From contig CP068257.2 in the NCBI GenBank assembly GCA_009914755.4, forward strand, positions 28,928,001 to 28,992,000: 64,000 bases of DNA, in the 5' to 3' direction. A program made the translations under genes and the position numbers. Positions 324-59,733 of this stretch are shown here, one piece after another. A model generated the notes under the pieces. The model saw only the letters and a list, made by a program, of their open reading frames with translations. It did not search any database and had not been told where the DNA came from. How positions within the stretch are numbered: the first letter of the stretch is position 1; every line of letters begins with the position of its first letter. The stretch is from the human T2T-CHM13v2.0 reference genome, Homo sapiens.

Positions 324-394
<71 letters not shown>

Positions 395-412
395 ATGTAT
401 ATATACACTTTA
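324..412. repeat. (TA)n / (TATATATACA)n simple repeat
   Basis: Direct reading shows uninterrupted TA dinucleotide runs with periodic ACA interruptions. Confidence 0.85.
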
Positions 413-8374: not shown

Positions 8375-8743
<369 letters not shown>

Positions 8744-8820
8744 TGCGATTTATTTTTGTAGTTACAGGGAGAATAATATCTGACTTCAAAGAGTTTGTAT
8801 TGTCACATCATGTTCTCTTT

Positions 8821-10262
8821 ACTGTATATATATATAAATTATATATAAATTATATAGAAATATATAAAGTATATATAAATTATATAGAAATATATAAAGT
8901 ATATATAAATTATATAGAAATATATAAAGTATATATAAATTATATAGAAATATATAAAGTATATATAAATTATATAGAAATATATAAAGTATATATAAAT
9001 TATATAGAAATATATAAAGTATATATAAATTATATAGAAATATATAAAGTATATATAAATTATATAGAAATATATAAAGTATATATAAATTATATAGAAA
9101 TATATAAAGTATATATAAATTATATAGAAATATATAAAGTATATATAAATTATATAGAAATATATAAATTATATAGAAATATATAAAGTATATATAAATT
9201 ATATAGAAATTATATATAAATATATAAAGTATATATAAATTATATAGAAATATATAAAGTATATATAAATTATATAGAAATATATAAAGTATATATAAAT
9301 TATATAGAAATATATAAAGTATATATAAATTATATAGAAATATATAAAGTATATATAAATTATATAGAAATATATAAAGTATATATAAATTATATAGAAA
9401 TATATAAAGTATATATAAATTATATAGAAATATATAAAGTATATATAAATTATATAGAAATATATAAATTATATAGAAATATATAAATTATATATAAATT
9501 ATATAGAAATATATAAATTATATATAAATTATATAGAAATATATAAATTATATATAAATTATATATAAATTATATATAAATATATAAAGTATATATAAAT
9601 TATATATAAATTATATATAAATATATAAAGTATATATAAATTATATAGAAATATATAAAGTATATATAAATTGTAGAGAAATATATAAAGTATATATAAA
9701 TTGTAGAGAAATATATAAAGTATATATAAATTATATAGAAATATATAAAGTATATATAAATTATATAGAAATATATAAAGTATATATAAATTATATAGAA
9801 ATATATAAAGTATATATAAATTATATAGAAATATATAAAGTATATATAAATTATATAGAAATATATAAAGTATATATAAATTATATAGAAATATATAAAG
9901 TATATATAAATTATATAGAAATATATAAAGTATATATAAATTATATAGAAATATATAAAGTATATAGAAATATATAAATTATATATAAATTATATAGAAA
10001 TATATAAATTATATATAAATTATATATAAATTATATATAAATATATAAAGTATATATAAATTATATAGAAATATATAAAGTATATATAAATTATATAGAA
10101 ATATATAAAGTATATATAAATTGTAGAGAAATATATAAAGTATATATAAATTATATAGAAATATATAAAGTATATATAAATTATATAGAAATATATAAAG
10201 TATATATAAATTATATAGAAATATATAAATTATATATATTATATACTGTATATATAATTTAT
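8821..10262. repeat. AT-rich minisatellite (VNTR), 30-bp unit, about 48 copies
   Basis: The unit 'tatatagaaatatataaagtatatataaat' repeats in exact register with the 60-column lines. Blocks of shorter 20-bp variants (tatataaattatatagaaat) occur near 9470-9600, and there are point variants (ttgtagagaaa) near 9660-9720 and 10110-10140. Confidence 0.95.
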
Positions 10263-12722
10263 ACAGCATATTAGGAATACTCATGGAATTATTTTTCCTC
10301 AGATCATAGGATTAAATGTTGAAATTCTGATGACATTTTGAAAATATATCAAAAGTTGGTCCTCTAATACAAAATACTATAAAATGAGCAAACCACAGTA
10401 GCTTTCGATTAAGTCATTCTCAAGTTTACTCATTCAGCATATATACATTGTGCATGTACTGAAAAGGGTCGTTTTAAGCTTTGGGGATACACTAATGAAA
10501 AAAAAAATGTCAAGAGAAAAAAGTCCCTTTCCTATGGACCATACGTTATTCCAGGTGAGAACAATAATATCAGATATTAAAGTACACGAAGAAAACAGCA
10601 AGCAGTGGGCTAGAAAGTGCAGCAAGGGAGTTAAAATTTTACAGAGTGGTCAGGGAAACCTCACAGAGAATGAAATTTTGAGACAACTGTCAGGAACACA
10701 GAGAAGAAAATTTTGAGACAACTGTCAGGAAAGATGAGAAAGCAAATTCTGTTGATATTTGAGAGAAGAGCTCTCCAGTTGGAAGGAAGAGCAAGCACTA
10801 AGACACTGATGGGAAGCATATGTCTGGCATATTCAGAATTAGCAGGGGGACAAAGGTGGTCAGAGGAATGGGCACTGGTAAGAGGTGAGGTCAAGGAAGT
10901 CCCATGGTGGAGGAGGGTGGCAGGAGGGGGTGGGGAAGAGTCTGCATAAATTGCCAGGCAAGTCTAGCTCTCCCTGTGGGTAGGCAACAATAGGTTTCAG
11001 CAACTGCCTATAAATAGACATGTGCTGACTGTTGAGAGATGAAGGTAATCTAGGAGCCATTGTGAACAACAACTAGGAAAGAGATCCAAGGAGATATGGG
11101 CGGAACTTTAAATGCATCTACTATGTGTAGTTTGAACAAAGACTCTTTGATGTTTGTAATGGTGTAATGGTGGAGGTGGCAAGAAGTGGTTGGATTCTTG
11201 GTGTATTTTGAAAGTACAGTCAATGTAACTTTTTGATGAGTTGGAAGTAGGCTTCAAGAGAAAGAGTCAAGAAAATCAAAAGTTTGGGGCCTGAATACCT
11301 AAAGATATGGAAATGTCATAAACTGATACGGCAAAAGGGTAAAAACAGCAAATTTTCATTAGAATAAAGATGAGAAGTTTAATTTTAGACATATTCAGCT
11401 TAAGATGACTCTAAGACATGTCGGATTTGTAGCGATAGATAGATACATGTCTCATTCTCAGGTGGGAGTCCTGGGCTGGAAAGGAGAAACACAATTCATA
11501 GGCACAGAGATATAGTTTTTTTTCATTAAGATGAAAGAGATCACTGAGATATGGGGGCTTTGTTTTATCAGTTAGATTTCTCAGACTAATAAACTCCCCA
11601 AAGGAAGAAAGTAAATGTTCCGTTTGATAAGATTAAGGAACAGTTGTTCTGATTGATTCCTGCCAACAATGAAAGTCCTGGTTATTGGTTTTCCTCGTGG
11701 ACTTGCTTTTATTCAGGCAGTTGGCGTGCTTACCTAGTATCGGCATCTGGCCTGGTAGACCACGGCCTTTTCTTTCTACTGTATCCCTTCGACTTTAAAG
11801 TAAGAAGAGCCTGATAGGTGCCCAGGATTTAATGAAGTTTTTAGGGTCTACTCACATTGAATGTCTTTAAGTTACAAGAACTCATTATGTTTTCTGTTTA
11901 CTTCCTGTCACTTCCTCCTGAGAAGCCTGTCACTTTTTCTCTTTCTTTTTACACTTGTACACACACGCACATGCATGTACGCGCACACACACACACACAG
12001 TACCCATCTTCTTCATCTAGCTTCTACTCACTTCTATTCACCTACTTTTACTTCTATGCTTCTACTCATCTACTTATCTGTCAGAAATCACTCCTTCCAC
12101 TTCACCGTCTCATAATCAATGATCACAGGATATGTTATATGATTGTGAGAATAACAAATCTCAACTTGTATTGCCTAGTGGATTAACAGTATCCTCCCAC
12201 ATAGACTGTGTATCCAAGAGAAGAGAGACCATATCCACCTCGTACATCTGTACATTTCTGGTGTCTGGATGATAACTTTACACTGCAAGCAAGCATTCCG
12301 TAAATACTTGTGTAATTAAACTAAATTGACTTGGAAGTACCAATAATATCATCAGTCACGCAAAAACAAATATAAAAACATGGAAGCAAAATTATTGCAA
12401 TAAGCAAATGTAAATAAAGTCAAATTCACCTTCATAAGATCATATAATATTACATTTAAAAAAAACATGAATTTTCTCAAAAGAATAATTTAAGTGGAAA
12501 TATATGGACTTATTAAAATAGTATAATTGCAGAAAAATAGATAAAAAATTTGAAATTTCTCTCGCTCAATCCAGAACCTGCAGCTAATATTCTAAAGTCA
12601 TTTAAAATGTGGCTATGAGCTAACTTTTGATAACATTGATGGGACGAAGAACAGTGGAAAGAGAGCTAGCACTTCACAGGAAGGTGAGTCCAATGGGCTA
12701 AGTGGCTCTCAGGGTTGATTCC

Positions 12723-12841
12723 TCAGTAGAATCCATAGTATCTGCCACCGCAAGAAGAGTAGCAGCAACTGTAACAGTATCACAATACCCACAGCCATGC
12801 CCATAGCCCAGGCCACCATCACAGTTACCACAGTAGCACGT
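12723..12841 (-). pseudogene. KRTAP20/22-like high-Gly-Tyr keratin-associated protein pseudogene
   Basis: The minus-strand leader 'cttctgataccACGtgctactgtggtaac' is homologous to the KRTAP22-2 leader 'cttctgacaccATGtgctactaccacaac', but the initiator is ACG. The first frame reads TCYCGNCDGGLGYGHGCGYCD. A +2 frameshift is then needed to read the KRTAP20-like C-terminus CYSCCYSSCGGRYYGFY*. There is no in-frame upstream ATG because a TAA intervenes. I see no convincing TATA box. Confidence 0.6.
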
Positions 12842-40060: not shown

Positions 40061-40207
40061 ATGAGCTTTGATAACAACTACCATGGTGGCCAGGGCTATG
40101 CCAAAGGAGGCCTGGGCTGCAGCTATGGCTGTGGTCATAGCGGCTATGGCTATGCCTGCTACTGCCCATGGTGTTATGAAAGATCTTGGTTTTCTGGCTG
40201 CTTCTGA
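40061..40207 (+). CDS. KRTAP22-1: High-glycine-tyrosine keratin-associated protein 22-1 (48 aa, single exon)
   Basis: The manual translation from 'atgagctttgataacaactaccatggtggc...' is MSFDNNYHGGQGYAKGGLGCSYGCGHSGYGYACYCPWCYERSWFSGCF*. This matches my recollection of human KRTAP22-1. It is absent from the track because it is under 60 aa. Track ORF 40068..40304 is the +1 frame of the same DNA. Possible TATA-like elements are 'ttattataag' at 39965-39974 and 'tataaac' at 39999-40005. Confidence 0.85.
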   Translation: MSFDNNYHGGQGYAKGGLGCSYGCGHSGYGYACYCPWCYERSWFSGCF

Positions 40208-52628: not shown

Positions 52629-52844
52629 TCAATAATAGTAGCCAGAGCCAGAGCCGCATCCATAGCCATAGCCACAGAGGGAGCGGGAGCCATAGCCATA
52701 GCCACAGCCCAGTCTGCGGAAGCCACAGCCACAGCAGGAGCCATAGCCACAGCCCAGGCCTCCATAGCCATAGCCCAGGCCTCCATAGCCACAGAACCCA
52801 TAGCCAGGGGTGCCATAGTAGTTTCCGTAGTAGCTGCCACACAT
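52629..52844 (-). CDS. KRTAP6-1: High-glycine-tyrosine keratin-associated protein 6-1 (71 aa, single exon)
   Basis: The track ORF translates exactly to [71 protein letters not shown]. Its leader 'caaccaacaccATGtgtggcagctactac' and TATA module are paralogous to KRTAP6-2 and KRTAP6-3. Overlapping ORFs in other frames are low-complexity artefacts. Confidence 0.9.
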
Positions 52845-55394: not shown

Positions 55395-55565
55395 ATGATT
55401 TACTACAGCAACTATTATGGTGGCTATGGGTATGGTGGGCTTGGCTGTGGCTATGGCTGTGGTTATCGTGGCTATGGATGTGGTTATGGTGGCTATGGAG
55501 GCTATGGAAATGGCTACTACTGCCCATCTTGCTATGGAAGATATTGGTCATATGGTTTCTACTGA
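55395..55565 (+). CDS. KRTAP20-1: High-glycine-tyrosine keratin-associated protein 20-1 (56 aa, single exon)
   Basis: Manual translation gives [56 protein letters not shown]. It is not in the track because it is under 60 aa. Track ORFs 55478..55726 (+) and 55366..55569 (-) are out-of-frame or antisense reads of the same repeat-rich DNA. The leader is 'ccatttctgacaccATG'. Confidence 0.85.
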
Positions 55566-59520: not shown

Positions 59521-59598
59521 TTCATTTGCAGATGGTGACATTCAAACTGAGAAAAATAATTCCCTGATCCACAACTGAAACATCCACTTCTGAACACC

Positions 59599-59733
59599 AT
59601 GTCCTACTACAGCCATCTTTCTGGTGGCCTGGGCTGCGGCTTGGCTGTGGCTGTGACTATGGGAAGGACTGTGGCTGTGGCTGAGTATGGCAGGTGCAGA
59701 CATGGCTGCCACTCATCTTACTCTGCCAGGTAA
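59599..59733 (+). CDS. KRTAP20-4: Keratin-associated protein 20-4 (44 aa, single exon; atypical Ala/Val-rich HGT family member)
   Basis: Manual translation gives MSYYSHLSGGLGCGLAVAVTMGRTVAVAEYGRCRHGCHSSYSAR*. The leader 'cttctgaacaccATG' is the family leader. Its position after KRTAP20-1 matches the known cluster order. The protein composition diverges from canonical Gly-Tyr paralogs, so the name rests partly on map position and memory. Confidence 0.6.
   Translation: MSYYSHLSGGLGCGLAVAVTMGRTVAVAEYGRCRHGCHSSYSAR

What the first reader, a model, noticed from the sequence alone, without database searches (positions are those of the whole stretch)
8821..10262. 1.44-kb AT-rich minisatellite: about 48 tandem copies of a 30-bp unit with higher-order variant blocks
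The array is nearly perfect for the unit tatatagaaatatataaagtatatataaat. It also has internal sub-blocks of a 20-bp variant near 9470-9600 and units marked by 'ttgtagagaaa', which indicates ongoing expansion, contraction or unequal exchange. Long AT-rich minisatellites are typical of hypervariable VNTRs. They can form stable secondary structures associated with replication fork stalling and fragility. This array sits about 3.5 kb from a KRTAP pseudogene inside a cluster already prone to copy-number change. It also generates long spurious ORFs on both strands, 128 aa and 91 aa.
Basis: seen in the sequence. Interest (0 to 1): 0.5.

Follow-up and report, generated by a model that had tools for sequence, protein, structure and literature searches.

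The report
AT-rich 30-bp minisatellite, KRTAP intergenic DNA
This is a real but ordinary 1.4-kb non-coding tandem repeat of a 30-bp, 94% A+T unit in the intergenic DNA of the human hair keratin-associated protein gene cluster; its internal pattern records past block duplications, and this copy is too short and too weakly self-pairing to count as a fragile site.

Summary
TRF finds one array at 8830-10245: period 30, 47.5 copies, 93% matches. It holds 30 exact copies of the stated unit, is 93.7% A+T, and has no C on the + strand for 1,423 bp. Both ORFs (128 and 91 aa) exist and are only the repeat read in a stop-free frame.

Two details are wrong. There is no 20-bp variant: the variants are 19-bp units that lack an 11-bp subunit and 41-bp units that carry an extra one. 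The KRTAP pseudogene lies 2.4-2.6 kb from the array edge, not 3.5 kb.

The 45 interior units parse completely. One ordered variant block (19-mer, G-to-T units, 41-mer, canonical, TGTAGAG units) occurs three times, and the blocks are separated twice by exactly seven canonical units. That is the mark of slippage and unequal exchange.

By the published fragility criteria the array is an AT-dinucleotide-rich flexibility island (64% AT/TA steps) and the least stable duplex in the window. It is shorter than the 3-5 kb linked to fragility, misses the hairpin-energy criterion, is not palindromic, and is unrelated in sequence to the FRA16B unit.

Copy-number polymorphism is the key claim and could not be tested: public short-read contigs stop at the array edge. 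Verdict: an ordinary AT-rich minisatellite of low interest.

The parts
8821..8850 (.). Degenerate left edge unit: ACTG + TATATATATATAAAT + TATATATAAAT. It contains one of the only two C in the array and the left copy of the 12-mer ACTGTATATATA (8821-8832).
8851..9150 (.). Run of 10 identical canonical 30-bp units (U = TATATAGAAA|TATATAAAG|TATATATAAAT, subunits a, b and c of 10, 9 and 11 bp).
9151..9240 (.). Variant block 1: a 19-bp unit lacking subunit c (9151-9169), one canonical unit, then a 41-bp unit with an extra 11-bp subunit (9200-9240).
9241..9450 (.). Run of 7 identical canonical units.
9451..9731 (.). Variant block 2: 19-bp unit, 3 units with G-to-T in subunit b (9470-9559), 2 units of 41 bp (9560-9641), 1 canonical unit, 2 units starting TGTAGAGAAA (9672-9731).
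9732..9941 (.). Second run of exactly 7 identical canonical units.
9942..10151 (.). Variant block 3, in the same order as block 2: 19-bp unit, 2 G-to-T units, 1 unit of 41 bp, 2 canonical units, 1 TGTAGAGAAA unit (10122-10151).
10152..10211 (.). Two canonical units.
10212..10262 (.). Degenerate right edge, with the right copy of ACTGTATATATA (10245-10256) holding the second C. Independent short-read contigs L004 and L005 begin at 10235 and 10238.
8800..9186 (+). Spurious 128-aa ORF. It starts at a TTG in the left flank, reads 10 units as (YINYIEIYKV)n and ends where the first 19-bp unit shifts the frame.
10009..10284 (-). Spurious 91-aa ORF that starts in the right flank and reads the repeat on the minus strand.
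8394..8744 (-). Context, not part of the array: a minus-oriented Alu whose head lies 76 bp left of the array and whose middle linker is a pure T41 run (8583-8623). The array therefore did not grow from an Alu tail.
12690..12840 (-). Context: a KRTAP pseudogene remnant with ACG in place of the start codon, a frameshift, and the C-terminus CYSSCGGRYYGFY*.

Best explanation
This is a non-coding AT-rich minisatellite in intergenic DNA of the human 21q22.1 high-glycine/tyrosine KRTAP cluster. The chromosome band is from memory of where these genes map. The array has no gene-like function.

It probably arose from a ~10-bp TATATA(N)AAA(N) motif that tripled into a 30-bp unit with subunits of 10, 9 and 11 bp. 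The array then grew and was kept uniform by replication slippage and unequal sister-chromatid or homologue exchange. Later changes were four point substitutions, gains and losses of the 11-bp subunit, and duplication of a 0.3-0.5-kb block.

Physically it is the most easily unwound and most torsionally flexible stretch of the window, and its single strands can form slipped, imperfect TATATA hairpins. Those properties would make it mutable in copy number and mildly hard to replicate. At 1.4 kb it lies below the sizes at which such arrays become cytogenetic fragile sites.

Shown: the array's anatomy, composition, energetics and gene context. Inferred: the mechanism of growth, and present-day polymorphism.
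For: - Array and unit.
- Complete parse into 45 units of 7 types with no residue: U10 | S19 U K41 | U7 | S19 T3 K41x2 U G2 | U7 | S19 T2 K41 U2 G | U2.
- The ordered variant block recurs three times, with two spacers of exactly 7 canonical units. Variant 24-mers recur at lags 420-491. Exact units are clustered, P = 0.005-0.01.
- Subunits a, b and c share 8-9 of 9-11 positions, and AAA runs are spaced on average 10.0 bp apart.
- The edges are degenerate and bracketed by ACTGTATATATA.
- Block (higher-order) mutations are reported at 29,964 human TR loci and attributed to unequal crossover.
- Physical properties: 63.9% AT/TA steps against 18.5% for the window; duplex stability -0.865 against -1.243 +/- 0.10 kcal/mol per step, the only region above -0.95; fold z = -6.7 against shuffles.
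- Non-coding: no Pfam match, no homologue, no Rfam family.
- Locus identity: the 56-aa ORF is exactly human KRTAP20-1, and the others are KRTAP22-2 and KRTAP22-1. Contaminant contigs from human-associated metagenomes and a Logan run are 99.9-100% identical to the window.
Against: - No second allele or orthologue was obtained, so polymorphism and the timing of the expansions are inferred from one sequence.
- The twist-fluctuation and nearest-neighbour parameter tables were recalled from memory.
- No interspersed-repeat library was available, so derivation from a transposable element or a named satellite family is not formally excluded.
- A chromatin or replication role cannot be excluded by sequence analysis.
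Confidence: 0.85

Rival explanations
1. The array is a functional chromatin element: a base-unpairing or matrix-attachment region (SATB1-type 'ATC context'), or a DNA-unwinding element or replication origin, that helps organise the KRTAP cluster.
For: - One strand lacks G (the + strand lacks C) for 1,423 bp, and the next longest such run in the window is 62 bp. This meets the sequence definition of an ATC context.
- It is the least stable duplex in the window.
- It carries 156 same-strand TATAWAWR matches and 10.0-bp phasing of AAA runs.
Against: - All these properties follow automatically from repeating one C-free, AT-rich unit.
- Characterised SATB1 sites are 60-70% A+T with 'well-mixed' C, whereas this array is 94% A+T.
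- The run-to-run identity indicates recent turnover rather than conservation of a functional element.
- There are no binding, matrix or origin data.
Confidence: 0.08
2. The array is a latent rare fragile site of the FRA16B/FRA10B kind. Expanded alleles of several kb exist in some people and break under distamycin A or BrdU.
For: - It is the same kind of sequence: a 30-bp unit, 94% A+T, 64% AT/TA steps and a flexibility peak.
- FRA10B and FRA16B show that different AT-rich motifs can expand independently.
- The reference allele here already has 47 copies, against 7-12 for normal FRA16B alleles.
Against: - The allele seen is 1.4 kb, below the >5 kb threshold.
- The unit is not related to the FRA16B 33-mer beyond composition (P = 0.1-0.28).
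- Hairpin energy is weaker than for FRA16B, and the segment criterion is not met.
- The comprehensive fragile-site review does not mention any site on 21q.
Confidence: 0.05
3. The array is part of, or derived from, a transposable element or a named satellite family rather than an in-situ expansion.
For: Many minisatellites sit inside mobile elements. An Alu lies 76 bp away. A 12-bp direct repeat brackets the array, which could be read as a target-site duplication.
Against: - The Alu faces away, with its head and not its A-tail next to the array.
- Neither end has a poly(A) or poly(T).
- Eight of the 12 bracketing bases are simply TA repeat.
- The right flank 10263-12500 and the left flank outside the Alu have no other copy in the window.
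- The unit is absent from the rest of the window and from three public collections.
Confidence: 0.04
4. The long ORFs encode repeat proteins.
For: Open frames of 128 and 91 aa, and stop-free stretches of up to 222 codons.
Against: - The period of 30 is a multiple of 3, so any stop-free frame of the unit stays open.
- The ORFs end exactly where 19-bp units shift the frame.
- The peptides are made of Y, I, N, K and L, as expected from AT-rich DNA.
- There is no Pfam match, no homologue, and no record of either product.
Confidence: 0.005

Closest known systems
FRA16B (33-bp) and FRA10B (~42-bp) AT-rich minisatellites, the distamycin A/BrdU-inducible rare fragile sites
   Same: A tandem array of a 30-40-bp unit with more than 90% A+T, rich in AT/TA steps, flexible, and able to form slipped hairpins. 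The arrays are built from several motif variants of different lengths.
   Different: - The locus is different, and the unit is not alignable to the FRA16B 33-mer beyond composition.
- The allele is 1.4 kb, against >5 kb or up to 2000 copies for fragile alleles.
- Folding per nt is weaker, -0.13 against -0.16.
- The strands are asymmetric (A 807, T 544; no C), so the sequence is less self-complementary.
- No fragility is known on 21q.
AT-dinucleotide-rich sequences (AT-DRS) or flexibility islands of common fragile sites such as FRA16C and FRA16D
   Same: AT/TA content of 64% against 66%, and one continuous TwistFlex-type peak of about 1.5 kb. That is longer than the >250-400-bp AT-DRS reported to perturb replication.
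   Different: It is shorter than the >=3-kb class associated with fragile bands. The criterion of 7 consecutive segments below -40 kcal/mol is not met. It does not lie in a known fragile band.
Euchromatic VNTRs with block (higher-order) mutations, as catalogued from long-read assemblies (TRCompDB)
   Same: Multi-unit blocks duplicated within the array, which is attributed to unequal crossover.
   Different: Here the block structure is read from a single haplotype. Recurrence between haplotypes was not observed.
Palindromic AT-rich repeats (PATRRs) of 11q23, 22q11 and elsewhere
   Same: AT-rich and non-B-DNA prone.
   Different: It is not a palindrome. The best inverted arms are 70-75% complementary and arise only from the repeat's TATATA content.

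Membership tests
Minisatellite / VNTR | Head-to-tail tandem array of a 10-100-bp unit | tested here: met
   TRF gives period 30 and 47.5 copies. There are 30 exact units, and the 45 interior units parse completely.
Minisatellite / VNTR | Copy number varies between individuals | not testable with these tools
   The unit and flanks are absent from the metagenome, genome and viral collections. There are no protein-level relatives. Short-read contigs L004 and L005, plus 22 similar ones, stop at the array edge.
FRA16B/FRA10B-type AT-rich minisatellite fragile site | Unit of about 30-42 bp with about 90% or more A+T | tested here: met
   The unit is 30 bp and the array is 93.7% A+T.
FRA16B/FRA10B-type AT-rich minisatellite fragile site | Unit related in sequence to the FRA16B 33-mer | tested here: not met
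   The best cyclic alignment scores 14-16 of 30, against 12.2-12.5 +/- 2.3 for shuffled units (P = 0.10-0.28).
FRA16B/FRA10B-type AT-rich minisatellite fragile site | Expanded allele of several kb (>5 kb for FRA10B; up to 2000 copies for FRA16B) | tested here: not met
   This allele is 1.42 kb with 47.5 copies. Other alleles were not seen.
FRA16B/FRA10B-type AT-rich minisatellite fragile site | Cytogenetic gap or break induced by distamycin A or BrdU | not testable with these tools
   This needs an experiment. The review does not mention a fragile site on 21q.
AT-DRS / flexibility island | Very high AT/TA dinucleotide content (about 66% in the FRA16C AT-DRS, below 16% in the control locus) | tested here: met
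   63.9% in the array against 18.5% in the window.
AT-DRS / flexibility island | Mean twist fluctuation above 13.7 degrees in 100-bp windows | tested here: met
   There is one continuous peak over 8784-10314, with mean 14.8 and minimum 13.98. The dinucleotide values were recalled from memory. The array stays 3.6 SD above the window mean when the AT value is lowered to 16.
AT-DRS / flexibility island | At least 7 consecutive 300-nt segments (150-nt shift) with folding energy below -40 kcal/mol | tested here: not met
   The eight segments give -39.6, -38.5, -39.3, -44.1, -41.9, -35.8, -42.7 and -41.7. This used ViennaRNA DNA parameters rather than Mfold, so it is borderline.
AT-DRS / flexibility island | Length of at least 3 kb (the class enriched in fragile bands) | tested here: not met
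   The peak is about 1.5 kb.
PATRR (palindromic AT-rich repeat) | Near-perfect inverted repeat of a few hundred bp | tested here: not met
   The arms are 70-75% complementary in every register.
SATB1-type base-unpairing region / MAR | Clustered stretches with A, T and C but no G on one strand | tested here: met
   The run is 1,423 bp, and the next longest in the window is 62 bp. This follows trivially from the unit.
SATB1-type base-unpairing region / MAR | Base unpairing under superhelical strain, SATB1 or matrix binding | not testable with these tools
   The only available proxy is the lowest duplex stability in the window.
Protein-coding gene | Homologues, a domain, or any record of the product | tested here: not met

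The most novel reading that the evidence does not exclude
The array is an unrecognised expansion-prone locus of the FRA10B/FRA16B kind. Some human haplotypes would carry multi-kb expansions that create a distamycin A/BrdU-inducible rare fragile site at 21q22.1, on a chromosome arm for which the fragile-site review mentions none. The recurring pairing of an 11-bp loss with an 11-bp gain would mark the out-of-register exchange that drives such expansions.
Probability: 0.05. Interest if true: 0.5.

Novelty: new member of a known kind. Interest (0 to 1): 0.15.

Why it matters
It matters little as it stands. AT-rich minisatellites are a well-known class, and this one almost certainly already sits in genome-wide tandem-repeat catalogues, although no paper in the searchable library quotes its unit.

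Its practical relevance is technical. Short-read assemblies break at it, and it produces spurious ORFs.

Its fully resolved unit map makes it a convenient locus for studying block duplication and subunit-register shifts in long-read population data. If multi-kb alleles exist, it would be a candidate rare fragile site next to the KRTAP genes.

Tried and rejected
1. I made exact scans for the 30-mer in metagenome, genome and viral contigs, and for both unique flanks in metagenome and genome contigs.

2. I looked up both repeat ORFs and the 50-aa left-junction ORF by exact protein. None is on record. The 109-aa ORF at 11857-12186 is not on record either.

3. A homology search with the 128-aa repeat ORF found no candidate.

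4. Exact-protein look-up of neighbouring ORFs did find human contaminant contigs (L001-L005). All are under 2 kb and stop at the array or short of it, so they give no copy-number information.

5. The 418-aa and 507-aa members clustered with the KRTAP proteins turned out to be unrelated bacterial proteins, so they offered no way to walk along a long contig.

6. The orthologous array in apes could not be reached. The nearest annotated gene, KRTAP22-2, is 19 kb away and the flank limit is 10 kb.

7. Literature searches for the unit sequence, and for KRTAP together with minisatellite, found nothing relevant. The supplementary list of long AT-DRS is not held.

8. A 60-bp or 90-bp true period was rejected.

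9. I considered reading the 12-bp bracketing repeat as a target-site duplication and rejected it, because there is no poly(A) and most of the repeat is TA.

10. Rfam finds nothing in the window.

Full report
**1. The observation**

Reading 8500-10600 and running Tandem Repeats Finder on the whole window shows a single large array at 8830-10245. TRF gives period 30, 47.5 copies, 93% matches, 3% indels and score 1664. No other tandem array in the 64 kb comes near it; the next largest are (TA)41 at 324-405 and the coding repeats of the KRTAP genes.

- The 1,442 bp are 93.7% A+T, with A 807, T 544, G 89 and C 2.
- The higher TRF scores for periods 60 and 90 are only multiples of 30. Self-identity is 0.939 at lag 30, 0.895 at lag 60 and 0.873 at lag 90.

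**2. Anatomy**

The 30-mer is itself three related subunits: a = TATATAGAAA (10 bp), b = TATATAAAG (9 bp) and c = TATATATAAAT (11 bp). They share 8-9 positions with one another. AAA runs are spaced 8 or 11 bp apart, on average 10.0 bp, and the Fourier peak is at 10.0 bp.

The interior, 8851-10211, parses without any residue into 45 units of seven types:

| Type | Count | Description |
|---|---|---|
| U | 30 | canonical unit |
| T | 5 | G-to-T change in subunit b |
| G | 3 | TGTAGAGAAA in place of TATATAGAAA |
| S19 | 3 | 19-bp unit that lacks subunit c (two types: S19t x2, S19g x1) |
| K41 | 4 | 41-bp unit with an extra 11-bp subunit and a G-to-T change in subunit a (two types: K41 x3, K41g x1) |

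The order of units is: U10 | S19 U K41 | U7 | S19 T3 K41x2 U G2 | U7 | S19 T2 K41 U2 G | U2.

- The same ordered variant block therefore occurs three times, and the two spacers between blocks are each exactly seven canonical units.
- Variant-bearing 24-mers recur at lags of 420-491 bp.
- Exact units are clustered into fewer and longer runs than chance gives (P = 0.011 and 0.005 by permutation).
- In every block the 11-bp loss (S19) comes before the 11-bp gain (K41), so the register shifts by one subunit and is later restored.
- The two edges are degenerate. Each carries the 12-mer ACTGTATATATA (8821-8832 and 10245-10256), and these hold the only two C of the array.

There is no 20-bp variant at 9470-9600. 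That stretch holds 19-, 30- and 41-bp units.

**3. The ORFs**

The 128-aa ORF (8800-9186, +) and the 91-aa ORF (10009-10284, -) exist. Because 30 is a multiple of 3, any stop-free frame of the unit stays open until a 19- or 41-bp unit shifts the frame. The 128-aa ORF ends just after the first S19. Stop-free stretches reach 222 codons.

Neither ORF has a Pfam match or any record as a called gene. The 128-aa ORF has no relative among 5.8 billion proteins.

**4. Context**

Six Gly/Tyr/Cys-rich ORFs lie at 29174-29311 (-), 31383-31715 (+), 37629-37814 (-), 40061-40207 (+), 52629-52844 (-) and 55395-55565 (+). Two clear the Pfam KRTAP (PF11759) cut-off, three score just below it, and the ORF at 52629-52844 has no match.

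- Exact look-up identifies the 56-aa protein as human KRTAP20-1 (NP_853646.1), the 45-aa protein as KRTAP22-2 (Homininae) and the 48-aa protein as KRTAP22-1.
- The locus is therefore the human high-glycine/tyrosine KRTAP cluster. Its chromosomal band, 21q22.1, is from memory.
- Contaminant contigs from human-associated metagenomes and a Logan run are 99.9-100% identical to the window.
- The nearest intact KRTAP gene is 19 kb from the array.
- The only KRTAP-like remnant nearby is at about 12690-12840 (-). It has ACG in place of the start codon, a frameshift, and the C-terminus CYSSCGGRYYGFY*. It is 2.4-2.6 kb from the array edge, not 3.5 kb.
- An Alu in minus orientation (8394-8744) ends 76 bp left of the array with its head towards it, so the array did not grow from an Alu A-tail.
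- The rest of both flanks has no other copy in the window.

**5. Physical properties, measured against published criteria**

The fragile-site literature gives operational criteria:
- FRA16B is a 33-bp unit with 7-12 copies in normal alleles and up to 2000 in fragile ones.
- FRA10B is a ~42-bp unit at 91% A+T, fragile above 5 kb.
- AT-DRS have about 66% AT/TA steps and a TwistFlex value above 13.7 degrees. At least 7 consecutive 300-nt segments fold below -40 kcal/mol. Lengths of 3 kb or more are enriched in fragile bands.

Results for this array:
- AT/TA steps are 63.9%, against 18.5% for the window.
- There is one continuous flexibility peak over 8784-10314, with a mean of 14.8 degrees. The dinucleotide values were recalled from memory, and the result is robust to lowering the AT value.
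- Duplex stability is -0.865 against -1.243 +/- 0.10 kcal/mol per step. It is the only region of the window above -0.95 (nearest-neighbour values from memory).
- Ten units as single-stranded DNA fold to -39.6 kcal/mol, z = -6.7 against dinucleotide shuffles, but the centroid is almost unpaired.
- Per nucleotide the array gives -0.13, FRA16B -0.16 and (AT)150 -0.36 kcal/mol. The eight 300-nt segments range from -35.8 to -44.1 and rank 10th to 51st of 425 in the window. Only five are below -40, and no seven are consecutive.
- Inverted-repeat arms are 70-75% complementary in any register, so this is not a palindrome of the PATRR kind.
- The unit aligns to the FRA16B 33-mer no better than shuffled units do (P = 0.10-0.28).
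- The comprehensive review does not mention any fragile site on 21q.

In short, the array belongs to the AT-dinucleotide-rich, flexible, easily unwound class. This allele falls short on length and on hairpin stability, and it is not related by descent to FRA16B.

**6. How it most likely works**

The best-supported explanation is a neutral minisatellite that arose in place and is kept uniform by slippage and unequal exchange. Four things point to this: the runs of 10, 7 and 7 identical units; the tandem clusters of each variant type; the thrice-repeated ordered block; and the degenerate edges. Block mutations of this kind are reported at 29,964 human TR loci and attributed to unequal crossover.

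The anatomy is shown. The mechanism, and the claim that change is still going on, are inferred.

**7. What could not be done**

- The unit and both flanks are absent from the three scannable collections.
- The only public contigs of this locus that I could reach are short-read contigs. They start at 10235 and 10238, the right edge of the array. They confirm the right junction in independent samples but carry no length information.
- None of the 24 contigs read for the right-flank ORF spans to the left flank. That is weak evidence against a common allele lacking the array.
- Ape orthologues are out of reach, because the nearest annotated gene is 19 kb away.

**8. Rivals**

- A chromatin role (SATB1-type base-unpairing region, unwinding element): the array formally meets the 'ATC context' with a 1,423-bp run and is the stability minimum of the window. 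Both follow trivially from the unit, and characterised SATB1 sites are 60-70% A+T.
- A latent rare fragile site: possible only if much longer alleles exist.
- Mobile-element origin: there is no poly(A), the Alu faces the wrong way, and there are no other copies, but no repeat library was available.
- Coding: rejected.

**9. Verdict**

The feature is real and accurately located, with two descriptive errors: the 20-bp variant and the distance to the pseudogene. It is an ordinary member of a known class, and its interest is low.

Noticed in passing
window 8583-8623 (within the Alu at 8394-8744, minus strand): A pure run of 41 T replaces the middle A-rich linker of an Alu, 200 bp left of the array. 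Long poly(dA:dT) tracts are themselves reported as break sites under hydroxyurea (mentioned) and are likely to vary in length. A second T-rich run (45 bp, 90%) lies at 36315-36359.
   Followed up: partly
window 324-405 (flexibility peak 251-468): A (TA)41 microsatellite with 85% AT/TA steps. It has the highest flexibility value in the window (16.5) and per base is a stronger hairpin former than the minisatellite.
   Followed up: partly
window 12690-12840 (-) and 59593-59730 (+): Two KRTAP-like remnants. The first has ACG in place of ATG, a frameshift, and the C-terminus CYSSCGGRYYGFY*, so it is a pseudogene of the KRTAP20/21-like type. The second is weaker, with tblastn E-values of 0.001-0.1.
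   Followed up: partly
window 40061-40207 (+): The KRTAP22-1 ORF has His at residue 25, where human NP_853651.1 has Leu. The His form is the exact sequence on record for Pan and Pongo, while the KRTAP20-1 ORF of the same window is exactly the human protein and differs from the chimpanzee one. This is probably a human polymorphism retaining the ancestral residue.
   Followed up: partly
window 31383-31715 (+), 37629-37814 (-), 52629-52844 (-): The three KRTAP6-like ORFs (103/110, 62 and 71 aa) are not present as exact sequences in the 15-billion-protein collection, unlike their neighbours. I do not know whether this reflects allelic differences or gaps in the collection. The ORF at 31383 is open from an ATG seven codons upstream of the MCGSYY start typical of the family.
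   Followed up: no
window 8821-8832 and 10245-10256: The exact 12-mer ACTGTATATATA brackets the array and holds its only two C. This is most simply a trace of the first duplication that seeded the array. It is not a convincing target-site duplication.
   Followed up: partly
window 9151-9240, 9451-9641, 9942-10061: In each of the three variant blocks a 19-bp unit (minus 11 bp) is followed downstream by a 41-bp unit (plus 11 bp). The repeat register is thus shifted by one subunit over a stretch and then restored, as would be expected from an out-of-register exchange or conversion patch that was later copied with the block.
   Followed up: partly
window 10662-10731: A 35-bp segment is duplicated in tandem (2.0 copies, 94% identical) 400 bp right of the array.
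   Followed up: no
L004, L005 (window 10235-11733 and 10238-10943): Public short-read contigs of human contaminant DNA (a Logan run and a gut metagenome, plus 22 similar contigs) all begin within 3 bp of each other at the right edge of the array. This shows the array acts as an assembly breakpoint.
   Followed up: yes
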